A stretch of 8,805 nt of DNA from a virus (IMGVR_UViG_2671180809_000010), one strand, 5' to 3'; shown: positions 1-8,805, numbered from the stretch's first letter. Program-made: numbers and translations. Notes: generated by a model not told the origin, from the sequence alone.

Positions 1-558
1 CTAGATGGTGCTGCAACTGAGCATGACACGCTGTTACCACGATTCACCGATGATATAAGCCGTCAATCATGGGTTAGTGAAAAGGTCTTCTGTAACCTGC
101 CGTACAGCGATATTCCGTCGTTCCTCTTAAAAGCGTCTGAAGCGGATTTAGTAGCTTTCCTGATACCGCATAGAGCCAACACCAGCTACTGGCTTAGGCA
201 CATTTACAGCAATAACCACTGTCATGAAATCCGTATTCTTCATCGTGCAGTTAAATACCTTCCACCAGCAGGCCATAACGGGCTTACTATTCGTTCACCG
301 TTTCCTAGTGCAGTCGTTGTTTTTAAAAAAGAACCACGTAAGCACGAAATTACACAGACGGTTTGCTGTGGTGACACGCTATTACCGTTAACCATCATTA
401 ACAGAGGAGGCTTGAGAGGAAGACCCACCATTTACCCACCTGAGACGCTCGACAGCTTCATAAAACTATACAGGCAAGGAAAACCCATTAAGTGCATTGC
501 AGATGCTCTCAGAATGCCTCTGAGCACGTCATACAGGATTGCTCAAAGGTTGAGCTAA
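1..558 (+). CDS. DNA N6-adenine methyltransferase, phage Dam family, 5'-truncated by the window edge, with C-terminal helix-turn-helix extension
   Basis: Frame-1 translation is open from position 1 to TAA at 556-558: ...RFTDDISRQSWVSEKVFCNLPYS...HRANTSYWLRH...GLTIRSPFPSAVVVFKK...GRPTIYPPETLDSFIKLYRQGKPIKCIADALRMPLSTSYRIAQRLS. The (D/N)PPY-type motif position reads NLPY (94-105), and a PFPS-type motif follows, as in phage Dam-family methyltransferases (Pfam PF05869-like, by recall). The last ~45 residues look like a resolvase/Hin-type HTH. Confidence 0.7.
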   Translation, partial: LDGAATEHDTLLPRFTDDISRQSWVSEKVFCNLPYSDIPSFLLKASEADLVAFLIPHRANTSYWLRHIYSNNHCHEIRILHRAVKYLPPAGHNGLTIRSPFPSAVVVFKKEPRKHEITQTVCCGDTLLPLTIINRGGLRGRPTIYPPETLDSFIKLYRQGKPIKCIADALRMPLSTSYRIAQRLS

Positions 559-1116
559 AATTCTCATAAATATGGTCATTTAAATGATATAAGCCGTCAA
601 TCATGGGTTAGTGAAAAGGTCTTCTGTAACCCGCCGTACAGCGATATTCCGTCGTTCCTCTTAAAAGCGTCTGAAGCGGATTTAGTAGCTTTCCTGATAC
701 CGCATAGAGCCAACACCAGCTACTGGCTTAGGCACATTTACAGCAATAACCACTGTCATGAAATCCGTATTCTTCATCGTGCAGTTAAATACCTTCCACC
801 AGCAGGGCATAACAGGCTTACTATTAGGTCACCGTTTCCAAGTGCAGTCGTTGTTTTTAAAAAAGAACCACGTAAGCATGAAATTACACAGATGGTTTGC
901 TGTGCTGATACATTGCTACCGTTAACCATCATTAACCGTGGTGGACTAAGAGGAAGACCCACCATTTACCCACCTGAGACGCTCGACAGCTTCATAAAAC
1001 TATACAGGCAAGGAAAACCCATTAAGTACATTGCAGATGCTCTCAGAATGCCTCTGAGCACGTCATACAGGATTGCTCAAAGGTTGAGCTAAAATTCTCA
1101 TAAATATGGTCATTTA
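50..1116. repeat. Tandem direct duplication, two units of about 534 bp (50-583 and 584-1116)
   Basis: Second unit repeats the first with the same phase (534 = 178 codons). About twenty substitutions, clustered at 268-420 versus 802-954; the rest is near-identical. Confidence 0.9.
559..1092 (+). pseudogene. Duplicated 3' fragment of the methyltransferase gene, no start codon for the methyltransferase portion
   Basis: Frame is open from the TAA at 556-558 to TAA at 1090-1092 and encodes ...VFCNPPYS... (NPPY at 628-639) plus the same HTH tail. No ATG/GTG/TTG in frame before ATG 892. The ORF track calls only 892-1092 (66 aa, HTH portion), with no obvious SD. Confidence 0.5.
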
Positions 1117-1169
1117 CAAGACAGGTGATTCAGATGTTAAGAAGTATCCCTGTGAACAATAAATGACCA
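1107..1169. repeat. 10-bp perfect inverted repeat TGGTCATTTA / TAAATGACCA (1107-1116 and 1160-1169)
   Basis: Read directly. The left arm is the last 10 bp of the duplicated unit and also occurs at 573-582, at the junction of the two copies. Confidence 0.6.
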
Positions 1170-1180
1170 ATCAGTAATTA

Positions 1181-1210
1181 TTCTGTGAAATAATTGTTGC
1201 AATTTATAAT
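1181..1210 (+). promoter_or_regulatory. Candidate sigma70-type promoter upstream of the replication gene
   Basis: Perfect -10 TATAAT at 1205-1210 with a weak -35 TTCTGT at 1181-1186 (18-bp spacer). A second candidate is TTGACA at 1292-1297 with TATTCA at 1314-1319. Both are consensus matches only. Confidence 0.25.
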
Positions 1211-1474
1211 CACATCTGTTATAGTTTTTATATGGGGTGATAAAAGAACTCAGAACATTAAGAGGTTACAACGTTGGGAGGCGTCAGGGTATTGACAGAT
1301 TTTCACGGCCTCTTATTCAATCAAGGCTTTTCCTTTTGCTGTTAATACTCGCGTAATCGCTCAGGCTTCTGAGTTCCTTTATCAGTCCATCTTCTAATTA
1401 ATTCACTCCCTCTGGGGTTGGTCACTATACGTGGTCAGCCCTTTCTTTGTTTTATTTTTAAAAAGGAAAATATA

Positions 1475-2428
1475 ATGGAAAAATTCCACATGTTTGATGA
1501 CCGTATTTATCAGATGACTAATGGCGTTAAAGCTGCCGACCGTATTATTTACACTGTCATGTTGAATGAACAAAAGTTTTATCACGATAAGGGGCAATAT
1601 TATACCCCTTCATATGCTCATCTTGGTCAGTATGCTGGAATCACAAGAACATCCGTGATTGCATGTATGAAACAACTTGAGGCACATGGTTTAATCAAGA
1701 AAACTAACGTTGCAAGCAATCAGTGTGTTATTAAAGTTTATTCACTTGATGAAGTACCGGAGGTTTTAACAGAGCTTACAGCTAAGGAAGCCAGAAAGGC
1801 AAAGCTGGAGTCTAAAGTTACTCAGTCAGTCAAGAAAGATGACCCACTGAGTCAAAATTCTTTACCCACTGAGTCAAAATTTTTTACTCAGTCAGTCAAA
1901 ATCTTTGACACGTATAATAACAGTAATAACAAGAAAGAACTTATTAATAACAATAAAGAAGATGACTTTGAAGAAGAATATTTTAAGAAGGGAGCTTCGC
2001 TCTGTGATTCACATGAATGTGATTCTCTTGGTATTGAAGAGGCTATTAAAGAGACTGTTAAAACATCTGACTTAGATGACCTTGATAGTGAAGCTGCTAA
2101 AGAGGTCGTTAAAAAGGAAGATAAAATCTCTGATGTGATTGCTAGTAGTGACCATAAAAACACACAGTGCCCCGCCACTGATGATGAATTACCGGATGTT
2201 GACCTTGATGATGAAGAAGACCCTGAAAAGGAATTGAAACGTGAACAGCGTAAAGCAGAAATTAAAGAAAGATTCAGAAATGCGAAGCTAAAGAACAAGG
2301 TTAGTGACCTCGATGACTTTGATGATAGTGACGATGATTTTACTTTTACACCAAAAAAGAAAACTCACACCGAGCCAAAGAAAGAAAAAGTTAAAGTCAG
2401 ACGTGTTTATGGTGGAGGAATGTTTTAA
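1475..2428 (+). CDS. Replication initiator / replisome organiser-like protein (winged-helix N-terminus, acidic low-complexity C-terminus)
   Basis: ATG 1475 is preceded by AAGGA (1463-1467) at 7-nt spacing, preferred over the TTG at 1418 of the ORF track. N-terminal ~95 aa (...YAHLGQYAGITRTSVIACMKQLEAHGLIKK...) resemble HTH_36-type replication-protein DNA-binding domains. The C-terminal two-thirds are D/E/K-rich. Iteron-like repeats lie inside the gene. Confidence 0.6.
   Translation: MEKFHMFDDRIYQMTNGVKAADRIIYTVMLNEQKFYHDKGQYYTPSYAHLGQYAGITRTSVIACMKQLEAHGLIKKTNVASNQCVIKVYSLDEVPEVLTELTAKEARKAKLESKVTQSVKKDDPLSQNSLPTESKFFTQSVKIFDTYNNSNNKKELINNNKEDDFEEEYFKKGASLCDSHECDSLGIEEAIKETVKTSDLDDLDSEAAKEVVKKEDKISDVIASSDHKNTQCPATDDELPDVDLDDEEDPEKELKREQRKAEIKERFRNAKLKNKVSDLDDFDDSDDDFTFTPKKKTHTEPKKEKVKVRRVYGGGMF
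1818..1899. repeat. Iteron-like direct repeats (putative replication origin) inside the initiator gene
   Basis: Identical 16-mer TTACTCAGTCAGTCAA at 1818-1833 and 1884-1899. Identical 18-mer ACCCACTGAGTCAAAATT at 1842-1859 and 1864-1881. The 18-mer pair is offset by 22 bp, so it sits in different reading frames and is conserved at the DNA level, not the protein level. The two repeat types share ACTCAGT in opposite orientation. Confidence 0.55.
1900..1985. other. AT-rich tract next to the iterons (candidate DNA-unwinding element)
   Basis: Sequence AATCTTTGACACGTATAATAACAGTAATAACAAGAAAGAACTTATTAATAACAATAAAGAAG... is markedly more A+T-rich than the flanking coding sequence. Confidence 0.4.
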
Positions 2429-2724
2429 TGAAAACTTATAATGGCGAGAGAAAATACCGTGACTATTTACTCAGACGTTACAGCATTTCTCGTGAAGGTT
2501 ACTTGATGAAAGATACTCACGGGGAAGTTTACCGGATTCGACCGAAGAAAGAAGGGAGGGATTATTATTTCGTCGATGATGTGACAGATTTAAAGATTGA
2601 CGCTTTGAAGTTTGCGGTGCTGTATCATTACGATTTATGGGATTCAGTCCACCAGCTACGATTAAAAGACGGTGACCCCGGTAATCTGAGGGCCACCAAT
2701 ATTATCAAGGGAAAGTGCCGGTAA
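2428..2724 (+). CDS. Hypothetical protein, 98 aa; weak resemblance to HNH_3/AP2-type small nuclease-like proteins
   Basis: ATG 2428 overlaps the upstream stop (TAATG). GGAGG at 2414-2418. The C-terminal ...VHQLRLKDGDPGNLRATNI... loosely recalls the H-x-DG-x-N-x-NL motif region of HNH_3 proteins; this is a weak, unverified match. Confidence 0.5.
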   Translation: MKTYNGERKYRDYLLRRYSISREGYLMKDTHGEVYRIRPKKEGRDYYFVDDVTDLKIDALKFAVLYHYDLWDSVHQLRLKDGDPGNLRATNIIKGKCR

Positions 2725-2733
2725 GGCCACCAG

Positions 2734-2910
2734 CTATTTATTTACTGAAATCTCTATCTCAACACGAAGAAGTTTAAGTCGAATTGTAAGCTTTGTCTTT
2801 TTTGTAATGACTCGATTCATAACGCAAAACACCAATAGCACAATAAATACCGCAAAGCCCAACGAGCTAAAACGATGAGATTCAATAATTGCTGTGAAAA
2901 AATCATGCAT
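2734..2910 (-). CDS. Small predicted single-pass membrane protein, 58 aa
   Basis: Minus-strand ATG at 2910 with AAAGGAAAA upstream; the ORF track starts at a GTG at 2940. MHDFFTAIIESHRFSSLGFAVFIVLLVFCVMNRVITKKTKLTIRLKLLRVEIEISVNK has one hydrophobic helix followed by a basic tail. It is the only opposite-strand gene in the window. Confidence 0.4.
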   Translation of the reverse strand: MHDFFTAIIESHRFSSLGFAVFIVLLVFCVMNRVITKKTKLTIRLKLLRVEIEISVNK

Positions 2911-2914
2911 TAAT

Positions 2915-2934
2915 TTTCCTTTTGTGAAAGGAAA
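2915..2934. promoter_or_regulatory. Perfect 8-bp inverted repeat TTTCCTTT-TGTG-AAAGGAAA over the RBS of the minus-strand gene
   Basis: Read directly. It lies in the divergent region between the minus-strand gene (start 2910) and the + strand gene starting at 3048. No T-tract follows on either strand, so it is not a typical intrinsic terminator. Confidence 0.4.
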
Positions 2935-3047
2935 CAGCACCTGTATCAGCCCCTACAACCATAGTATCATGTAAATGAGGTACTGACAATATGTTAAATA
3001 GATGTTAAGATTGTAGTATGAGTAAGAGATTTAAGGAGATTTTTACA

Positions 3048-3338
3048 ATGACTCACACAGTTACGCGCCTTTTGCCAGAGGCATTTGAACGACTGGCAGC
3101 AATCAAAGCCAAATATCCCGATATGAAGCACACAGCGCTTGTTGGGGAGATTTTAAAAGAGTCGGTAAACCTTAGCCCTTTCGATAACGTTAAGGGCGTC
3201 GCAGAGGGTTCTAAGGCCATCAGAATCACAACGGGCCAACTGGAACTACTCAAAGCACAGTCCGCAGTAGCAGGTTGCTCAATGATTCAGGTGTTAAGCG
3301 CTAAGGTCCATCAACTGGCGGATAGATTGGAGGTTTAA
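3048..3338 (+). CDS. Hypothetical protein, 96 aa, possible ribbon-helix-helix DNA-binding protein
   Basis: ATG 3048 has AAGGAG at 3033-3038 (9-nt spacer), preferred over ATG 3018, which has no SD. N-terminal TVTRLLPEAFERLAAIKAK has a strand-then-helix pattern like Arc/CopG proteins. Weak. Confidence 0.5.
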   Translation: MTHTVTRLLPEAFERLAAIKAKYPDMKHTALVGEILKESVNLSPFDNVKGVAEGSKAIRITTGQLELLKAQSAVAGCSMIQVLSAKVHQLADRLEV

Positions 3339-3559
3339 TGTGTTATAGGTTCCAATATTCCACACTTGGCCGCCACCTAATCAGACAGAATTTAGCAGAT
3401 GCTGAATTTGAAGATGTGACCCTCAAAGCAAACAAACGATTAAAACCCTCTCAAATCCACCAGCTTAAACACGAATTAAAGCCACTGGTAATACTCGACT
3501 ATAACGACCCTGAACAGCTTGAGCAGGGAATTAAGCTTATTTCTGAATGGGGTGCTTGA
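3338..3559 (+). CDS. Hypothetical protein, 73 aa
   Basis: ATG overlaps the upstream stop (TAATG at 3336-3340). GGAGG at 3329-3333. Confidence 0.5.
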   Translation: MCYRFQYSTLGRHLIRQNLADAEFEDVTLKANKRLKPSQIHQLKHELKPLVILDYNDPEQLEQGIKLISEWGA

Positions 3560-3774
3560 TGAAAACTATCACAGTACAACTTCAGACTAATAAAGCATTT
3601 CGTTATTTTGAAAACTTGCTTGAGTTATACGAAGGATGGGGAAGTATCCACGGCAAAGATGATATCTATCTTCACTTGTCAGCCCCTAACTATTCTCTGA
3701 AGACTCCGGTTAAGCAAAGCTGGTTAAAAGACTACGGTCACCAGATGGGGCTATTAGTCTCAGACTTGAGCTAA
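3559..3774 (+). CDS. Hypothetical protein, 71 aa (alternative start ATG 3547)
   Basis: ATG 3559 overlaps the upstream TGA (TGATG). The ORF track starts at 3547, which lacks an SD. Start choice is uncertain. Confidence 0.45.
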   Translation: MKTITVQLQTNKAFRYFENLLELYEGWGSIHGKDDIYLHLSAPNYSLKTPVKQSWLKDYGHQMGLLVSDLS

Positions 3775-3920
3775 AAACAGCAAAACATATCTCTCAGGCT
3801 TTACCAGACGCACCAGAAACGTTTTTAAGCCCCTAATCAGGGTAACTTAGGGAATCGCCTTAAGTGGTCTAAAAAAGGGGTTAAAACGTCTTAGAATGCG
3901 ATACAGGAAGGATTTTAAAA

Positions 3921-4226
3921 ATGAATTACCCAATGCAAATTATGGTTGACCAAGAAACCATGAATTGGTTGATTGACCTGAACAGGTCGGGCTTTAATAT
4001 CTATTTCATGCATTGTTTTGAAGCGTCAACGTATATTGACAAGCATATAATCAACGAAATTAAACTTGGTGACTATGTTCACAAGCTGGAAGTAACAGAC
4101 CCATACAATAAGCGCTTTATCATTGAAGAGTGCAATCGACTTGATTTAAGCCCTGAGCAATTATTGAAGCTGAATGTATTCTTGACCTATCAGAATGAAT
4201 TAAACCCTTACAGCGAGGTGATGTAA
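3921..4226 (+). CDS. Hypothetical protein, 101 aa
   Basis: AGGAAGGA at 3905-3912, 8 nt before ATG 3921. Clean ORF. Confidence 0.6.
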   Translation: MNYPMQIMVDQETMNWLIDLNRSGFNIYFMHCFEASTYIDKHIINEIKLGDYVHKLEVTDPYNKRFIIEECNRLDLSPEQLLKLNVFLTYQNELNPYSEVM

Positions 4227-4303
4227 TGACACTCGTTATTCTCTGGATGACTTTAGGGTTATTTGTTGGTTGCTGGGTAGGTAATACGGTAAATAAGAAT
4301 TGA
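4226..4303 (+). CDS. Possible small hydrophobic peptide, 25 aa (MTLVILWMTLGLFVGCWVGNTVNKN)
   Basis: ATG overlaps the upstream TAA (TAATG at 4224-4228). GAGGTG sits 6 nt upstream. Below the ORF-track size cutoff; coding status is speculative. Confidence 0.25.
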   Translation: MTLVILWMTLGLFVGCWVGNTVNKN

Positions 4304-4327
4304 TGTTACCAATCTGTTAAAAAGCTG

Positions 4328-4356
4328 TTGACAAATAACCTTAAGCATGAGATGAT
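4328..4356 (+). promoter_or_regulatory. Candidate sigma70-type promoter in the long intergenic region
   Basis: Perfect -35 TTGACA at 4328-4333, 17-bp spacer, -10-like GATGAT at 4351-4356. Consensus match only. Confidence 0.3.
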
Positions 4357-4364
4357 GGTAATAG

Positions 4365-4381
4365 GGAAGAGCAACTCTTCC
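4365..4381. repeat. 7-bp perfect inverted repeat GGAAGAG-CAA-CTCTTCC
   Basis: Read directly, just downstream of the candidate promoter. No T-tract follows. Confidence 0.5.
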
Positions 4382-4448
4382 TGAATTAAACTATTAATCA
4401 TTCTACATCAATGATAGTTATTCTGAAAGGTGCAATGCTTTTCGCTAC

Positions 4449-4478
4449 ATGACCTTTCAGGTTAGTCTGAGAGGTCAT
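4449..4478. repeat. 12-bp inverted repeat ATGACCTTTCAG-GTTAGT-CTGAGAGGTCAT (one mismatch)
   Basis: Read directly. No T-tract follows on either strand, so a protein-binding palindrome or RNA hairpin is more likely than an intrinsic terminator. Confidence 0.55.
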
Positions 4479-4504
4479 CTCGAAAAGTACTCTTGTTCAT
4501 TCGT

Positions 4505-4526
4505 TTGAATCCTTTTTGAATCCTTT
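4505..4526. repeat. Adjacent tandem 11-bp repeat TTGAATCCTTT x2
   Basis: Read directly at 4505-4515 and 4516-4526. Confidence 0.6.
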
Positions 4527-4701
4527 AGATGTTTTAATTTCTTCACCTTATGAATGGCCCTTTATAAGAAATTATCTAGGGCTATTCAGCTTTTAAAAAG
4601 CATACTTGGCAAACCGCCTTTTAAGTCTCTTCTAAGTTTAGATAGGCTGTCAGGTGTGCTTTTTAAAAACTGAAACACTTCCGCTTAGAAGAGGAAAAGC
4701 A

Positions 4702-5412
4702 ATGACAAATGATATTTACATTAATGGCAAAGTGATTGATAGCTTCAGTGACTGGTCGCCACAGACTGAACATCCAGCTATCACTATTCAGCGTAAAGAG
4801 CATGACAAGCGTATTGAGCTTGAGCAATCGCTAAAGATGTCACCAAAAACAACCATCTTTGTGTCTCCTGAGCCTCAAGAGATGCCTGATATTTGCAAGA
4901 GTGAAGCATTACTTGAGCTTGAAAAGAAATATTACCAACTGCTGAAAGAACAGCGCCTTAGATTAGATGACGCTTACAGCAAAGTTACCTTGATGCAATC
5001 AGCTATTGAGCCGTCAGAATTTGAGATTCAGGATGAATTGTCACAGAAACCATTTGTCTATTACCAATACGAAGATAATGATGGTTTTGGTACTTTTCAA
5101 GAAAACGTCGCAGCCGTGATTAGTAGTCTTCCTGCTGGACATCGAATTGTGAAGATGGTTAAGGCATCAAGAGGTGCTGGTCAGTTTATTTACATGACTA
5201 ATAAGAGCGATGAAGAACTCGCTGAAATTGCTAGACAGAACATCTTGGCATCACGTAACAAGCAACTTGATAATGTTAAGTTGTATCTCTCAAGAGAGCT
5301 TCAGGCTATGAAAGAGCTTGTGAAAGAATATGAAGATGCTAAGAAGATTGCTATGCAGGCTGATATTGAGCAGCTTACGAAGATTTCTAGCAAATATGCA
5401 AAGGCTATTTAA
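4702..5412 (+). CDS. Hypothetical protein, 236 aa
   Basis: ATG 4702 has GAGGA at 4691-4695 (6-nt spacer), preferred over the GTG at 4654 of the ORF track. Long clean ORF with no recognised domain. Confidence 0.65.
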   Translation: MTNDIYINGKVIDSFSDWSPQTEHPAITIQRKEHDKRIELEQSLKMSPKTTIFVSPEPQEMPDICKSEALLELEKKYYQLLKEQRLRLDDAYSKVTLMQSAIEPSEFEIQDELSQKPFVYYQYEDNDGFGTFQENVAAVISSLPAGHRIVKMVKASRGAGQFIYMTNKSDEELAEIARQNILASRNKQLDNVKLYLSRELQAMKELVKEYEDAKKIAMQADIEQLTKISSKYAKAI

Positions 5413-5436
5413 TTAATAATTAAAAGGTGGTGGTGA

Positions 5437-5643
5437 ATGATTGATTTAACAGAACGCTATGAGCTTATTAAAGCAATTAGTGAACGATTGAAAGAACAAC
5501 CCAACAAACCAAAACGAATCAAATCATTCACCTCCTCTAAGCAAAAGAATAGAATCAGGAAAATAGCTAAGTGGTGTCTTGATAAATTACCAAGTGATTG
5601 TCAGATTGTTGGTGAAGATGGTAATTATTATCTGGTTAGGTAA
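5437..5643 (+). CDS. Hypothetical basic protein, 68 aa
   Basis: AAGGTGG at 5424-5430, 6 nt before ATG 5437. Lys/Arg-rich. Confidence 0.55.
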   Translation: MIDLTERYELIKAISERLKEQPNKPKRIKSFTSSKQKNRIRKIAKWCLDKLPSDCQIVGEDGNYYLVR

Positions 5644-5741
5644 CAAGATTGGTTGGGTGAAAATCTACGGGAGAGATTATCGAGTGATATCGGTAGTCTT
5701 TCCCTTTTTCGTATATGAACACTTAAAGAGGTGAAACATGA

Positions 5742-7922
5742 ATGAGCAAATTCACAGTTGATAGTTTTATCGTTGAACTTAGTTTCAGTGAAAACGTTAT
5801 TAAGGGCTTGCAAAGAGTTGAAAAGGCAGCTTTGCAGTCAGCACAAAGAATTGAACGCAATTTGAATAGAGCGTTTAAGGTCGATACCAAGCAACTTGAC
5901 AGCAATCTGACAAGTTCTTTAGGGCAGCTTGAAAGGAAGTTTAATAAGACCTTTGACAAGATTGAGCAGAGAGCAAGAAGCACAAAAGCATTTCAGTTTG
6001 CCACCAGATTTAATGACACTGTTAATCCTCCAAAACAATCAAGGCAACCACGAATTAGCGGAAACAGAGCAATCACAGCAGCGCATAGCGTGAATATGTC
6101 TAAGCTTGGTGATATTAATCCGCTGATGGCTAAAATGTTTAAAGCACAGTATTACAGCTTAAGCGGTAAGGCTGGTAATATTGGAAGTGAAAAGTTTAAC
6201 GCTGAACTTGCAAAATTAAATCAATCTCTTCGTGAAACGTTGAATAAACTCAGGTCACAGACAAAGACCGCCAGCATTAACAATACAAGCGACGCATTTA
6301 ATAATCTTGCAAGCAATGCGATTAAATTATCTGGTGCATTTTACTCTGTGATGGGTGCTCTTAACGCTTACAAGGCCATTATGAATGCAGGTCTTAAACG
6401 AGATTCCGCACAGAGAGCCGCTAAGTTTGTACTTGGTGATAAAGCATCTGAAGCTGAGGTATTTATTCGAAATTTAGCAGACAAGACAGGTCTTAATATC
6501 TCTGAAGGGCTATCAAGCTACGCTAAGTTTGCAGCAGGTGCTCAGGGTTCTATGTCACAGGAACAGACACAGGAGCTATTTGGTAATGCAACGGCTATGA
6601 GTCGCTTAATGGGGCTTTCTAACGATGAGCTAAACGGCATTTTGAGAGCATTTGAGCAGATGGCGAGCAAGGGCAAGATTCAGGCTGAGGAATTACGTGG
6701 GCAGTTAGGTGACCGTATGGCTGGTGCATTTAAGCTATTCGCTGAAGCATTGGGTATGACTGCTACAGAGCTTGATGCAGCCATGAAAAACGGGAAGGTA
6801 CTTTCCGCTGATACTCTCCCTAAAGTCGCTAAACAGATGGGCTTGATGATTGATAAAGCGGGTGGCTGGGCTGAAGTCACTAAGAGCACTCAGACAGCTT
6901 TAGGTAAGTTAGCAAACAATTGGGATGATACGATGGTGAAAATCTTCTCAGGTTCACAGGATGAGCTAAACGGCTTCTTATCCAGCCTGAGTAACCTGCT
7001 TAGTGAAATGGGGATGAGTTCTTCTATCGCTGGTGATGCTATCGGTGGACTTATCGACATGCTTAAAGCTGGTGTAGATGATATTCGCGTATTCAATAAC
7101 ACCATTGAAGGCTGGATTTTACAGACTAAGAAGTTCTATTACAGCCTTGATGACACTAAACGAAAACTACTTGATGAAGTCGGTGATGGTTTTATCAACT
7201 TCGTCAAAGGTCTTGCTATAGCGTTATCTGCAAAGACGCTATTCAGTGCTACTACAGGGGTTATGAACCTGACAAGAGCAATCACAACGTTAGGTACAAG
7301 AGCTAATCAGGTGGCTGGTCAGGTAGCTACTGGTAAAGGTGGTGGAAAACTGAAAGGTGTAGCTGGTGGTGTAGGTAGTGCTCTTGCAATTGGTTATGCT
7401 GATGACGGTTATGAAACAGCGTTAGCATTAGCTTCAATGATTCCACAAATCAGAGGCGTCACTCTTGGTTTATATGCATTGAAGAAAGCACTGGATTTTA
7501 TGAATCAGGAAGTAGTCAAAAACGCTAATATGCATCCGTCTGGGGTAGGTGTGGGTAGTGACTTTAATCCCGTGTATTCTGGTGACCCTAATAAACCGAA
7601 TATGATTAACGAAGGATGGAGTAGAATTTTTAGTTCAATGGGTGAATTGTTTAACAATGCCACAATGAATATTGCAAGATTCAATCATCCAGAGTTAAAC
7701 AACATTAAGCAAGATTCAGCATTAACGAGTGCAGATATTCAGGGTCTGAGGGATGAAATTAGTGCTTTGAGTAAGCGTATTCAGGAGCCAGTGAAAGTTT
7801 CACTTGGTGGTCAAGTTGTCGTTCGACCAGATGAACCATCTTTCTTTACTTTCAATCAATCAGCTAATGACCAGTTCACGCAGGATATGCTCTTAAGTTC
7901 AAGCTATCCAGAGGAAGAATGA
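5742..7922 (+). CDS. Phage tail tape measure protein, 726 aa
   Basis: AGAGGTGA at 5727-5734 before ATG 5742. The segment ...EQMASKGKIQAEELRGQLGDRMAGAFKLFAEALGMTATELDAAMKNGKVLSADTLPKVAKQM... (about 6610-6840) matches the conserved tape-measure domain (TIGR02675-type, by recall). There is a coiled-coil-like N-terminus and a Gly-rich hydrophobic stretch GKGGGKLKGVAGGVGSALAIGY... near the C-terminus. Confidence 0.75.
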   Translation: MSKFTVDSFIVELSFSENVIKGLQRVEKAALQSAQRIERNLNRAFKVDTKQLDSNLTSSLGQLERKFNKTFDKIEQRARSTKAFQFATRFNDTVNPPKQSRQPRISGNRAITAAHSVNMSKLGDINPLMAKMFKAQYYSLSGKAGNIGSEKFNAELAKLNQSLRETLNKLRSQTKTASINNTSDAFNNLASNAIKLSGAFYSVMGALNAYKAIMNAGLKRDSAQRAAKFVLGDKASEAEVFIRNLADKTGLNISEGLSSYAKFAAGAQGSMSQEQTQELFGNATAMSRLMGLSNDELNGILRAFEQMASKGKIQAEELRGQLGDRMAGAFKLFAEALGMTATELDAAMKNGKVLSADTLPKVAKQMGLMIDKAGGWAEVTKSTQTALGKLANNWDDTMVKIFSGSQDELNGFLSSLSNLLSEMGMSSSIAGDAIGGLIDMLKAGVDDIRVFNNTIEGWILQTKKFYYSLDDTKRKLLDEVGDGFINFVKGLAIALSAKTLFSATTGVMNLTRAITTLGTRANQVAGQVATGKGGGKLKGVAGGVGSALAIGYADDGYETALALASMIPQIRGVTLGLYALKKALDFMNQEVVKNANMHPSGVGVGSDFNPVYSGDPNKPNMINEGWSRIFSSMGELFNNATMNIARFNHPELNNIKQDSALTSADIQGLRDEISALSKRIQEPVKVSLGGQVVVRPDEPSFFTFNQSANDQFTQDMLLSSSYPEEE

Positions 7923-7934
7923 TTTAACGGTGTT

Positions 7935-7987
7935 CTACGTGAATAAAGCAAAGTTAATACCCACACCAAAAATTATTTTTCACGTAG
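7935..7987. repeat. 9-bp inverted repeat CTACGTGAA ... TTCACGTAG with 35-bp A+T-rich spacer
   Basis: Read directly, downstream of the tape measure stop. Confidence 0.5.
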
Positions 7988-8017
7988 CTCACGCTTAACA
8001 GAGAAAATACATATATA

Positions 8018-8805
<788 letters not shown>

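What the first reader, a model, noticed from the sequence alone, without database searches (positions are those of the whole stretch)
4702..7922. Tape measure gene follows the early genes with no recognisable head, major tail or frameshifted chaperone genes between them
In typical siphophage tail modules the tape measure gene is preceded by a major tail protein gene and a chaperone pair expressed through a -1 frameshift. Here the tape measure gene (5742-7922) is preceded only by a 236-aa and a 68-aa ORF, separated with their own SD sites and with no overlapping frame. About 4 kb upstream lies the replication module. Either the two ORFs are unconventional chaperone analogues or the genome order is unusual.
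Basis: partly seen in the sequence, partly recalled or inferred. Interest (0 to 1): 0.4.

Follow-up and report, generated by a model that had tools for sequence, protein, structure and literature searches.

The report
Satellite-like island with borrowed tail genes
The window is not a phage genome but a decayed Shigella sonnei copy of a mobile ~11.6-kb chromosomal island that carries only two tail genes (tape measure and tube initiator) related to virulent Felix O1-like phages, which suggests a previously undescribed phage parasite that builds or sabotages hybrid tails.

Summary
A real tape measure gene (5742-7922) is preceded only by a 236-aa and a 68-aa gene. There are no head, sheath, tube or frameshifted chaperone genes, and a replication module lies upstream.

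The siphophage frame is wrong. The window is 100% identical from base 1137 onward to the Shigella sonnei chromosome. It is part of an ~11.6-kb island inserted in wrbA and bounded by a small and a large serine recombinase.

The island has its own initiator and iteron origin. Its only virion genes are homologues of Bas63 (Felixounavirus, a virulent myovirus) gp17 tape measure and gp18 tube initiator. Phage-like sequence survives only in limited parts of each: the two ends and TMP_3 core of the tape measure, and the tube-like domain of the initiator.

The family occurs in 8.7% of complete E. coli genomes. It is mosaic, under purifying selection, and exchanges tube-initiator alleles with Ounavirinae. 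A predicted attP junction occurs in three metagenome contigs, one a closed 11,178-bp circle.

The best reading is a satellite-type parasite of Felix O1-like phages that works like Vibrio PLEs (chimeric tails), without being a PLE. The 236-aa and 68-aa proteins are island-private and show no chaperone similarity. The S. sonnei copy is crippled by IS elements and a deletion.

The parts
1..558 (+). 3' part (185 codons) of the island's Dam-domain/HTH_7 fusion gene; the ORF runs off the left edge of the window
   Evidence: In frame with the 220-aa gene of S. sonnei loci. The complete protein hits PF05869 Dam (E=1e-14, N-terminal half of the model only) and PF02796 HTH_7.
584..1092 (+). Second, diverged partial copy of the same gene (534-bp tandem duplication, 50-582 / 584-1116)
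   Evidence: Absent from four S. sonnei chromosomes. 20 of the 23 mismatches to S. sonnei fall inside this copy and 3 more lie just after it.
1475..2428 (+). Replication initiator (317 aa): winged-helix N-terminal domain and acidic C-terminal half
   Evidence: PHROG 8102/428 'replication initiation protein' at E~1e-10, plus lambda O-like families; weak DnaD_N / HTH hits; no RepA_N hit. Called as 317 aa in S. sonnei. No phage or PDB relative.
1820..1950 (.). Putative origin inside the rep gene: four iterons (ACTCAGTCAGTCAA / CCCACTGAGTCAAAA) at 1820-1901, then an A+T-rich stretch at 1905-1950
   Evidence: Read directly (family D7). The arrangement is that of lambda O-type origins (established knowledge); function is inferred.
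2428..4226 (+). Five small island-private genes (98 aa 2428-2724; 106 aa 3018-3338; 73 aa 3338-3559; 75 aa 3547-3774; 101 aa 3921-4226), presumably regulatory or interference functions
   Evidence: ORFs. No family hits. Homologues occupy the same positions in other island variants, with mosaic identity of 25-99%.
4226..4303 (+). Tiny conserved ORF, MTLVILWMTLGLFVGCWVGNTVNKN (25 aa, hydrophobic)
   Evidence: Read; conserved across 11 variants (columns 1-78). Coding status is not proven.
4328..4356 (+). Near-invariant extended -10 sigma-70 promoter (TTGACA-17-TG-GATGAT)
   Evidence: Best-scoring site in the promoter scan. The block is invariant in all 11 variants.
4357..4701 (+). Conserved structured ~340-nt leader upstream of the 236-aa gene: hairpin 4366-4381, stem 4430-4484, terminator-like GCCC..GGGC 4557-4582, long hairpin 4585-4674
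   Evidence: I4; one stem with compensatory changes. No Rfam family. Its function as a riboregulator or sRNA is inferred.
4702..5412 (+). 236-aa island-private protein: disordered N-terminus, long helix, small alpha/beta core, ~65-residue C-terminal helix
   Evidence: AlphaFold2 pLDDT 72.8, with residues 68-220 at 80-91. No structural or profile match. Family restricted to these islands: 23 hits among 1.8 billion representatives. No phage homologue. dN/dS 0.22-0.42. The 'transposase' label in RefSeq has no support from any library.
5437..5643 (+). 68-aa island-private basic protein (helix plus a small beta unit)
   Evidence: No structural or profile match. dN/dS 0.07-0.20 where measurable.
5669..5714 (+). 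Intrinsic terminator-like hairpin plus T-run between the 68-aa gene and the tape measure gene
   Evidence: Top terminator-scan hit (15-bp stem). Conserved in all island variants, with compensatory differences.
5742..7922 (+). Tape measure protein (726 aa), homologue of Felixounavirus Bas63 gp17
   Evidence: 33% identical overall to garuso TMP. Phage-like only at residues 1-50 (60-80%), 301-375 (48-88%) and the last ~12 residues, where LLSSSYPEEE is identical. dN/dS 0.20-0.35.
7935..7998 (+). Island-specific cassette: inverted repeat CTACGTGAA..TTCACGTAG followed by CTCACGCTTAA, placed in front of the tube-initiator gene
   Evidence: I10. Found upstream of the tube-initiator gene in nearly all variants and also upstream of the TMP in five variants. 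Absent from phages.
8079..8779 (+). Tube-initiator (Dit-like; Bas63 gp18 homologue) pseudogene: a 74-nt internal deletion after 8226 shifts the frame, and the 3' end is lost after ~8779
   Evidence: Intact 261-aa homologue: PF21821 E=7e-19 and PDB 9NDY_A 'Tube initiator protein (gp018)' E=9e-110. 87-95% nt identity to Felixounavirus genes at 8103-8538.
8780..8805 (.). Sequence that departs from intact island copies; IS21-family genes follow in S. sonnei chromosomes
   Evidence: divergence after ...AAGTACTCAGTG. (IS21 istA/istB and IS1 genes downstream). (positions 8765-8805 match non-annotated stretches of Shigella and E. coli plasmids).

Best explanation
The window is a decayed Shigella sonnei copy of an ~11.6-kb integrative element. 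Its family behaves like a phage satellite of virulent Felix O1-like myoviruses (Ounavirinae). The proposed mechanism has six steps, each marked as shown or inferred. (1) Integration and excision: a large serine recombinase integrates the element into specific chromosomal sites, here the 5' end of wrbA, whose start codon the element replaces. It also excises the element to a circle. Integration sites, junctions and an attP-containing circular contig are shown; the enzyme's role is inferred from its domains. (2) Replication: the element replicates from an iteron origin inside its own lambda O-like initiator gene. The anatomy is shown; activity is inferred. (3) Early expression: a conserved promoter and structured leader drive the 236-aa and 68-aa genes up to a conserved terminator. 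Sequence features are shown; regulation is inferred. (4) Tail gene expression: behind that terminator and an island-specific cassette lie the only two virion genes, a tape measure protein and a tube initiator. (5) Assembly: these two proteins keep the parts that resemble their helper counterparts. For the TMP these are the N-terminal ~50 residues, the TMP_3 core and the C-terminal tip that contacts hub and spike in Bas63. For the tube initiator it is the tube-like domain. The rest is island-specific. During infection they would therefore be built, together with helper hub, spike, tube, sheath and fibres, into chimeric tails for the element's own transfer. At the same time they would divert or poison helper tail assembly. 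This is inferred by analogy with the experimentally shown PLE/ICP1 system. (6) The upstream proteins: the 236-aa and 68-aa proteins are most likely accessory factors of this take-over, acting as a private substitute for the chaperone or as an Rta-like inhibitor of the helper's tape measure protein. This is inferred and weakly supported. The S. sonnei copy can no longer move. Its recombinase is split by an IS element and its tube initiator is a pseudogene, while rep, the 236-aa and 68-aa genes and the TMP remain intact.
For: Not a phage genome: the window is 99.7% identical to S. sonnei chromosomes and 100% identical from base 1137 onward. About 90% identical islands lie in E. coli chromosomes at ymdF/wrbA and at yciI/tonB. 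Discrete element: comparison with an empty site gives exact junctions, a size of 11,579 bp and a shared core CT(G/A)GTGCTTT; the right end supplies a new wrbA start. Integrase: Resolvase + Recombinase + Zn_ribbon domains. Mobility: the predicted attP junction occurs in 3 metagenome contigs. One is 11,233 bp with a 55-nt terminal overlap, giving a circle of 11,178 bp that encodes a complete island with no chromosomal flanks. Own replicon. Only two virion genes, both Ounavirinae-type: TMP matches Bas63 gp17 at 3e-74 and the tube initiator matches Bas63 gp18 at 9e-110. The nearest phage TMPs are all Felixounavirus. The tube-initiator N-domain matches 258 Ounavirinae phages, with the match ending at nt ~542 in nearly all listed records. 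Interface-restricted conservation: and the Bas63 structure paper PMC12609058 for the TMP C-terminus contacting hub and puncture apparatus. Ongoing exchange with the phages: island tube-initiator alleles are paraphyletic to phage alleles (88-92% nt to phages versus 69-84% to other island alleles), and the C-terminal extension reassorts independently. Functional, maintained genes: dN/dS 0.07-0.42; synteny is conserved across variants with TMP identity from 37 to 90%. Prevalence: 474 of 5,426 complete E. coli genomes, all chromosomal. No conjugation genes and no capsid genes, so transfer must rely on something external. Precedent for the mechanism: PLEs encode TAC-TMP-baseplate hub, build chimeric tails with ICP1 parts, and PLE11 adds an 80-aa inhibitor of the phage TMP (PMC12987554).
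Against: No experiment or dataset here shows induction by, or packaging into, a Felix O1-like virion. The attP junction was not found in the viral-contig collection, and the sample types of the three metagenome contigs are unknown. No pac or cos site, terminase small subunit or capsid-size factor was recognised, so how an 11.6-kb DNA would be packaged by an 86-kb headful phage is open. No phage carries a relative of the island's Rep, meaning no Odn-like counter-defence was seen. The left 5.7 kb has no phage DNA match. The island TMP is only ~30-33% identical to any sequenced phage TMP, so compatibility with helper parts is inferred from short conserved segments. The roles of the 236-aa and 68-aa proteins are unsupported by any homology. 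Circular or attP-containing contigs prove excision or tandem arrays, not transduction.
Confidence: 0.62

Rival explanations
1. Pure defence island. The element is a mobile defence locus whose diverged tape measure and tube-initiator proteins act only as dominant-negative decoys that poison tail assembly of infecting Felix O1-like phages. The element itself is not packaged or transferred by them.
For: Interface-only conservation is also what a poison subunit needs. Tail-assembly interference is a documented defence strategy; titles and abstracts of PMC11364771 and PMC10884400 appear, and Rta is described in PMC12987554. In S. sonnei the TMP, 236-aa and 68-aa genes stay intact while the integrase and tube initiator are dead. 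No packaging signal or capsid factor was found.
Against: The element has its own replicon and an excision system and appears as a free circle, which a static defence locus does not need. It is spread over several genera and at least two chromosomal sites without any conjugative functions. Known satellites combine both roles, so this is more a subset than a true alternative. S. sonnei is clonal, so retention there says little.
Confidence: 0.2
2. The 236-aa and 68-aa proteins are unconventional tail assembly chaperones for the island's tape measure protein. They replace the helper's frameshifted chaperone pair.
For: Their position directly upstream of the TMP mirrors the chaperone position in the phages. 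PLEs do carry their own chaperone next to their TMP. The 236-aa model is dominated by long helices that could coat a helical TMP. Both genes are under purifying selection.
Against: No similarity to the phage chaperones or to PF21822. No TAC-like fold or any fold match. No frameshift architecture. A conserved terminator separates them from the TMP gene. Their variant types do not co-vary with TMP types: L011 has a 94%-identical 68-aa protein with a 42%-identical TMP, while L002 has a 95%-identical TMP with a 48%-identical 68-aa protein.
Confidence: 0.25
3. Degraded prophage: the island is the remnant of a temperate Felix O1-like phage that has lost most of its genes.
For: It carries phage-derived structural genes and an integrase. 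Some tools and records call such regions prophage (IMG/VR entries).
Against: All variants, down to 37% TMP identity, share the same minimal gene set and ~11-kb size with exact att boundaries. The genes are under purifying selection. No variant holds any further structural gene. All Ounavirinae records matched are ~81-90-kb phage genomes, apart from one 109-kb unannotated record, and none is an integrated copy. The rest of the island has no phage match at all.
Confidence: 0.04
4. A siphophage (or other complete phage) genome with an unusual module order, the window spanning early genes and the tail module.
For: Only the local appearance: replication gene, small ORFs, then a tape measure gene.
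Against: The chromosomal context on both sides is bacterial (rutG/ymdF and wrbA/yccJ), with the element's ends 1.5 kb left and ~6-7 kb right of the window, the right-hand stretch being mostly IS insertions. The TMP and its neighbour are of myovirus type. No head or packaging genes exist in the element.
Confidence: 0.01

Closest known systems
[quoted passage not shown]
   Same: A chromosomal island integrated by a large serine recombinase. It has its own replication initiator and origin. Its relation is to a strictly virulent contractile-tail phage. It carries a partial tail module centred on its own tape measure protein plus one baseplate-proximal protein, next to small proteins of unknown fold. 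The PLE proteins are likewise diverged from the helper's (20-41% identity). The experimentally shown outcome in PLEs, chimeric tails plus restriction of helper tail assembly, is the mechanism proposed here.
   Different: No detectable sequence relationship. The initiator is not RepA_N. No recognisable chaperone. The second tail gene is the tube initiator (Bas63 gp18 type) and not the baseplate hub. Size is ~11.6 kb, against ~18 kb for PLEs (my own recollection, not checked here). No capsid-remodelling gene was recognised. The host and helper lineages differ (Enterobacteriaceae / Ounavirinae). Nothing has been shown experimentally.
Putative E. coli satellites of Justusliebigvirus-type phages (Inny, Muut, Mt1B1_P17) described by Barth et al. 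2023 (PMC10055350, section 24)
   Same: [quoted passage not shown] They have a modular replication initiator, and a subset uses a serine recombinase.
   Different: Those elements also carry major capsid and decoration genes and a RepA_N initiator mirrored by phage nucleases. They mostly use tyrosine integrases next to tRNA genes. Their cognate phages are ~150-kb Stephanstirmvirinae. The island here has no capsid genes, a lambda O-like initiator with no phage counterpart, and tail genes of Ounavirinae type. Whether Table S6 of that paper contains any member of this family could not be checked.
Felixounavirus tail module (Bas63 gp13-gp25; cryo-EM structure PDB 9NDY, PMC12609058)
   Same: The island TMP and tube initiator are true homologues of gp17 and gp18 (E=3e-74 and 9e-110). 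They lie in the same order, and the tube-like domain shows up to 92% nucleotide identity.
   Different: The phages have the full conventional series sheath - tube - frameshifted chaperones - TMP - tube initiator - spacer - hub - spike - wedges, with overlapping genes. The island has only two of these, separated by private non-coding cassettes. Its TMP middle and C-terminal half and its tube-initiator C-terminal extension are private.
PICMIs, minimalist satellites of virulent vibriophages (PMC10803314)
   Same: A small island of a virulent helper with no capsid-remodelling genes. PICMIs are packaged as concatemers in full-size capsids (abstract). That would solve the size problem here, since 86 kb / 11.6 kb is about 7.4 copies.
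   Different: PICMIs carry no structural genes at all. No sequence relationship was tested or seen.

Membership tests
Conventional siphophage tail module (major tail protein - G/GT frameshifted chaperones - TMP) | Major tail (tube) protein gene upstream of the chaperones | tested here: not met
   No tube, major tail or sheath family hit for any ORF of the window or of complete islands.
Conventional siphophage tail module (major tail protein - G/GT frameshifted chaperones - TMP) | Chaperone pair expressed through a programmed frameshift immediately upstream of the TMP | tested here: not met
   No conserved shifted-frame extension and no slippery heptamer in 11 variants. No TAC family hit.
Conventional siphophage tail module (major tail protein - G/GT frameshifted chaperones - TMP) | Tape measure protein | tested here: met
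   PF20155, TIGR02675, PHROG 4036 and PDB 9NDY_F. The relatives are myovirus proteins.
Felixounavirus gp17 / gp18 protein families | Full-length homology to Bas63 tape measure protein gp17 and tube initiator gp18 | tested here: met
   E=3e-74 (matched stretches 1-81, 151-553 and 707-726) and E=9e-110 (residues 5-260).
Tail assembly chaperones (e.g. PF21822 Phage_TAC_15, as in Felixounavirus gp15/gp16) | Sequence or fold similarity of the 236-aa or 68-aa protein to a TAC | tested here: not met
   BLASTP gives no alignment. No Pfam or PHROG hit. Foldseek best E=0.02-2.7, none a TAC. A profile search against PDB sequences, which I expected to include the PLE1 chaperone entry 5IR0 cited in PMC12987554, gives nothing. 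Model confidence is moderate (pLDDT ~73).
PLE (Vibrio cholerae satellites of ICP1) | Large serine recombinase integrase | tested here: met
   PF00239 + PF07508 + PF13408 in the 547-aa protein of intact copies. It is split by an IS element in S. sonnei.
PLE (Vibrio cholerae satellites of ICP1) | RepA_N-type replication initiator | tested here: not met
   No PF06970 hit at E<=0.1. The hits are to lambda O-like and other initiator PHROGs, with weak DnaD_N.
PLE (Vibrio cholerae satellites of ICP1) | Own TAC-TMP(-baseplate hub) module incorporated into chimeric tails | tested here: inconclusive
   A TMP is present. The second gene is a tube initiator and not a hub. No TAC is recognisable. Incorporation into tails cannot be tested with these tools.
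PLE (Vibrio cholerae satellites of ICP1) | Excision, replication and transduction triggered by the virulent helper; restriction of the helper | not testable with these tools
   Only an attP junction and a circular form were shown. The trigger and packaging are unknown.
Barth et al. 2023 putative E. coli satellites | Major capsid and decoration protein genes together with TMP and a baseplate component | tested here: not met
   TMP and baseplate-proximal gene are present. No capsid or decoration gene occurs in any variant.
Barth et al. 2023 putative E. coli satellites | RepA_N initiator whose DNA-binding domain is mirrored in a nuclease of the cognate phage | tested here: not met
   No RepA_N hit. 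tblastn of Rep against 50,697 phage records gives no match.
P4-like / PICI / cf-PICI satellites | Signature genes (from my own knowledge, not checked here): AlpA, Pri-Rep primase, terS or capsid-size genes, Psu/Sid/Delta, or a full capsid module | tested here: not met
   None of these families is hit by any island protein in Pfam, PHROGs or NCBIfam.
Integrative element (generic) | Defined att junctions, occupied and empty sites, and a detectable attP (excised) form | tested here: met
   attL, attR, attB; attP in 3 contigs, one a closed circle of 11,178 bp.

The most novel reading that the evidence does not exclude
These islands are a previously undescribed family of satellites of virulent Felix O1-like phages in Escherichia, Shigella and Salmonella. 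They have converged on the PLE strategy. They replace just the tape measure protein and the tube initiator in the helper's tail, using private chaperone or inhibitor proteins (236 aa, 68 aa) and private regulatory cassettes. They are packaged as concatemers without any capsid gene of their own. They would then be both a widespread natural resistance factor against a phage genus widely used for typing, biocontrol and therapy, and a vehicle of gene transfer driven by strictly lytic coliphages.
Probability: 0.45. Interest if true: 0.8.

Novelty: new variant of a known kind. Interest (0 to 1): 0.62.

Why it matters
Felix O1-like phages are classical Salmonella typing phages and common candidates for biocontrol and therapy against Salmonella, E. 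coli and Shigella. An element in ~9% of complete E. coli genomes, and fixed in decayed form in S. sonnei, that carries look-alike versions of two central tail proteins of exactly these phages could have two effects. It could be a frequent, strain-specific cause of phage failure, and it could be a route by which a strictly lytic phage moves DNA between strains.

Mechanistically it offers a second, independent and much smaller system besides Vibrio PLEs in which to ask how a parasite forces its own tape measure protein into someone else's tail. The host and helper (Bas63) are genetically tractable, and the helper virion structure is solved.

It also shows that annotation pipelines currently label the family as 'tape measure protein / phage baseplate protein / transposase', and prophage predictors list it as viral. 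This hides what the family is.

Tried and rejected
- **Plasmid origin:** only a 41-47-nt match at the window's right edge, which is IS-related.
- **Phage relatives for the left 5.7 kb, the 236-aa protein and Rep:** none found with blastn (11-nt words) or tblastn.
- **Defence-system libraries:** no PADLOC hit for any of 10 proteins.
- **'Transposase' label of the 236-aa protein in RefSeq:** no transposase family in Pfam or NCBIfam supports it. I treat it as an annotation artefact.
- **Hidden programmed frameshift downstream of the 68-aa gene (ORF 5579-5734):** not conserved.
- **Fold assignment of the 236-aa and 68-aa proteins:** models of moderate confidence, with only chance-level coiled-coil matches such as IpaD, V-ATPase subunit D and prefoldin.
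- **Rfam families for the conserved leader and cassettes:** nothing near gathering scores. RNAalifold gives a stable consensus but almost no covariation, because the sequences are too similar.
- **Felix O1-derived regulatory DNA in the island spacers:** no phage match.
- **Taxonomic scan with one genome per species:** only two Escherichia representatives, so it was uninformative beyond confirming a narrow range.
- **Table S6 of Barth et al.:** not held, so overlap with their 224 elements is unchecked.
- **attP junction in IMG/VR viral contigs:** none found. The IMG/VR loci that carry the island are prophage-style predictions from isolate genomes, not virome evidence.
- **Literature:** five full-text searches found no paper linking Ounavirinae or Felix O1 with satellites. 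The library lacks most subscription-journal papers.

Full report
**1. The observation**

The 726-aa protein is a tape measure protein by every test:
- Pfam TMP_3, E=2e-21, above the curated cut-off.
- PHROG 4036, E=4e-93.
- TIGR02675.
- The solved chain 9NDY_F, 'Tape measure protein (gp017)', E=3e-74.

The two upstream proteins hit nothing in Pfam, PHROGs, NCBIfam or PADLOC. No conserved shifted reading frame or slippery heptamer links them or follows them, in the window or in ten related loci. The upstream replication gene is real: it matches PHROG initiator families at E~1e-10, and four iterons plus an A+T-rich stretch lie inside the gene at 1820-1950.

**2. What the window is**

DNA searches changed the frame completely. 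Only 5721-8538 matches phages, and those phages are Felix O1-like myoviruses of ~86 kb, not siphophages. The whole window matches E. coli chromosomes at ~90% identity.

In two annotated genomes the region is a compact island. Its gene order is: small serine recombinase, Dam/HTH gene, rep, small ORFs, the 236-aa and ~69-aa genes, tape measure, 'phage baseplate protein', and a large serine recombinase. One copy sits between ymdF and wrbA, the other between yciI and tonB.

Comparison with an empty site gives exact junctions:
- The element is 11,579 bp.
- It shares a core CT(G/A)GTGCTTT with the target.
- It inserts into the first codons of wrbA.
- Its right end supplies a replacement start (MSVKARILVLYYS...).

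The window itself comes from Shigella sonnei. The exact 236-aa protein is on record from that species. Four S. sonnei chromosomes match the window at 99.7%, and at 100% from base 1137 onward. In S. sonnei the element sits at the same wrbA site but is crippled:
- The gene after the tape measure has a 74-nt deletion and a lost 3' end.
- IS1 and IS21 elements follow it.
- The large recombinase is split by an IS3-family element.

**3. The two tail genes**

Intact copies of the gene downstream of the tape measure encode a 261-aa Dit-like protein, PF21821. It matches the solved 'Tube initiator protein (gp018)' of Bas63 at E=9e-110. In Bas63 the gene order is TMP gp17, tube initiator gp18, spacer gp19, hub gp20, spike gp21. 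The modelled C-terminal 25 residues of the TMP contact hub and spike. The tube initiator has a tube-like domain plus a ~100-residue C-terminal extension that runs through the baseplate (PMC12609058).

The phages have the conventional series sheath - tube - chaperone pair - TMP - tube initiator and so on. The chaperone pair is annotated as a frameshift-joined CDS in Moogle. The island holds only two genes of that series.

*Tape measure protein.* It is 33% identical overall to a Felixounavirus TMP. The similarity is concentrated in three places:
- residues 1-50, at 60-80% identity;
- the TMP_3 core, residues 301-375, at up to 88%;
- the last ~12 residues, where LLSSSYPEEE is identical.

*Tube initiator.* It is phage-like through residue ~180 and island-specific at 181-240. 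Across 258 Ounavirinae phages the nucleotide match ends at position ~542 in nearly all listed records.

*Allele relationships.* Island alleles of the tube-like domain are paraphyletic to phage alleles: some are 88-92% identical to phage genes but only 69-84% identical to other island alleles. The C-terminal extensions reassort independently and are never phage-like. This points to repeated recombination between islands and Ounavirinae over the shared domain, together with retention of a private module.

**4. The family**

Nine further loci show the same order: 101 aa - 236 aa - 68 aa - TMP - tube initiator - large serine recombinase. Divergence is mosaic:

| Gene | Identity to the window or island copy |
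|---|---|
| TMP | 37-90% |
| 236-aa protein | 26-89% |
| 68-aa protein | 45-94% |
| Tube initiator | 65-90% |
| Large serine recombinase | two types, ~34% identical |

Other properties of the family:
- All four genes of the tail region are under purifying selection, dN/dS 0.07-0.42.
- The tube-initiator N-domain occurs in 474 of 5,426 complete E. coli genomes, always chromosomal, with up to three copies.
- The 236-aa and 68-aa families are confined to Escherichia, Shigella, Salmonella and Citrobacter records.
- No phage encodes relatives of the 236-aa protein or of Rep, and the left 5.7 kb has no phage DNA match.

**5. Mobility**

From attL and attR I predicted the attP junction. It is absent from the viral-contig collection but present in three metagenome contigs.

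- One contig is 11,233 bp with a 55-nt terminal overlap. That gives a circular path of 11,178 bp with no chromosomal flanks. It encodes a complete island variant whose recombinase is 98.9% identical to that of E. coli MSB1_9I.
- A second junction lies in a 23,009-bp contig, about twice the island length. Only 6 kb of that contig is held.

The element therefore exists in nature as a circle or a head-to-tail array. Whether these forms were in cells or in particles is unknown.

**6. The 236-aa and 68-aa proteins**

AlphaFold2 models have moderate confidence, pLDDT ~73. The 236-aa model is good for residues 68-220: a long helix, a small alpha/beta core and a ~65-residue terminal helix. Neither model has a structural neighbour better than E=0.02 in the PDB or BFVD. 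Profile searches against PDB sequences find nothing.

Three further points argue against a chaperone role:
- They are unrelated to the phage chaperones.
- A conserved intrinsic terminator separates them from the TMP gene.
- Their variant types do not track TMP types.

The chaperone-analogue idea is therefore unsupported, though not excluded. An Rta-like role, as an inhibitor of the helper's TMP as in PLE11, is equally possible. Both remain inference.

**7. Regulation (seen in passing)**

A near-invariant extended -10 promoter (4328-4356) and a ~340-nt conserved, structured leader precede the 236-aa gene. No Rfam family matches it.

An island-specific cassette, the inverted repeat CTACGTGAA..TTCACGTAG followed by CTCACGCTTAA, precedes the tube-initiator gene in nearly all variants and also the TMP gene in five variants. 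It is absent from phages.

**8. Comparison with what is known**

The closest system by mode of action is the Vibrio PLE. It has a large serine recombinase, its own replicon and a virulent myovirus helper. It encodes its own TAC-TMP-baseplate hub, builds chimeric tails, and PLE11 adds an 80-aa inhibitor of the phage TMP (PMC12987554). That paper notes predicted tmp genes in other putative satellites.

Barth et al. (PMC10055350) described putative E. coli satellites with a TMP and a baseplate component. Those also carry capsid and decoration genes and RepA_N initiators, mostly use tyrosine integrases, and relate to Justusliebigvirus-type phages.

The island here fails defining features of both families: no RepA_N, no capsid genes, no recognisable chaperone, a tube initiator in place of a hub, and Ounavirinae-type tail genes. 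I therefore file it as working like a PLE without being a PLE. Five full-text searches found no paper linking Ounavirinae or Felix O1 with satellites. The library is incomplete, so prior description cannot be ruled out.

**9. Verdict**

Shown here: - an integrative, excising, self-replicating ~11.6-kb element family;
- exactly two Ounavirinae-type tail genes with interface-restricted conservation;
- ongoing allele exchange with those phages;
- a crippled copy of the element in S. sonnei.

Inferred: helper-dependent induction, packaging (possibly as ~7-mer concatemers, by analogy with PICMIs), chimeric tail assembly and/or tail poisoning, and the roles of the 236-aa and 68-aa proteins. I put 0.62 on the satellite-type explanation. 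The defence-only reading is the main rival at 0.2.

Noticed in passing
window 50-582 and 584-1116: A 534-bp tandem duplication of the 3' part of the Dam/HTH_7 gene. It is absent from four S. sonnei chromosomes that are otherwise identical to the window. The second copy and its immediate 3' flank carry all 23 substitutions of that alignment, 20 of them at 632-1028, while the rest of the window (1137-8805) is 100% identical. The origin (real polymorphism, assembly artefact or other) is unexplained.
   Followed up: partly
window 4226-4303: A tiny ORF encoding a 25-aa hydrophobic peptide (MTLVILWMTLGLFVGCWVGNTVNKN). It overlaps the stop of the 101-aa gene by one base (TAATG) and is conserved across island variants. 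It could be a small membrane peptide or toxin.
   Followed up: no
window 4328-4701: A near-invariant extended -10 promoter followed by a ~340-nt conserved leader with several hairpins, one showing compensatory changes, plus a terminator-like stem and a hairpin with 27-nt arms. No Rfam family matches. It could be an sRNA or an antitermination-controlled leader, by analogy with P4 CI RNA (from my own knowledge) or PLE SviR (PMC12987554).
   Followed up: partly
window 5669-5714: A strong intrinsic-terminator-like hairpin between the 68-aa gene and the tape measure gene, conserved in all variants with compensatory differences. It implies that tape measure expression needs read-through or a separate signal.
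   Followed up: partly
window 7935-7998; also L004 9918-9981, L005 2734-2797, L007 2565-2628, L009 2503-2566, L011 2830-2893: An island-specific ~64-nt cassette (CTACGTGAA...ACGTAGCTCACGCTTAA) placed upstream of the tube-initiator gene and, in some variants, duplicated upstream of the tape measure gene. It is absent from phage genomes. In the phages these genes overlap with no spacer.
   Followed up: partly
L003 22031-22070 (attR) versus L013 2244-2293 (attB): The island inserts into codons 5-8 of wrbA, and its right end supplies a new start and N-terminus (MSVKARILVLYYS against MAKVLVLYYS), keeping wrbA open. wrbA is also a known insertion site of Stx prophages (my own knowledge, not checked here).
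   Followed up: partly
L027 (from contig OOBX01000469.1, 23,009 bp): An attP junction inside a contig about twice the island's length. This could be a head-to-tail dimer, meaning a concatemer. Only 6 kb of the contig is held, so it could not be verified.
   Followed up: no
L003 11896-12558 / window 1-558: The island's 'DNA N-6-adenine-methyltransferase' matches only the N-terminal half of the Dam model (positions 9-83 of 169) and is fused to a resolvase-type HTH_7 domain. It may be a DNA-binding regulator and not an active methylase.
   Followed up: no
L014 and L017 13991-14688; L015-L017 14303-16610 and 16734-19713: S. sonnei strains differ in the IS load of the dead island: an IS1 copy is present in two of the four loci, and the recombinase is split by an IS3-family element in all four. 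This shows ongoing decay within the species.
   Followed up: no
RefSeq annotation of the 236-aa protein (e.g. WP_201524571.1; P0001-P0120): The protein is widely named 'transposase' in NCBI records, although no transposase family in Pfam or NCBIfam matches it. This is probably a propagated misannotation.
   Followed up: yes
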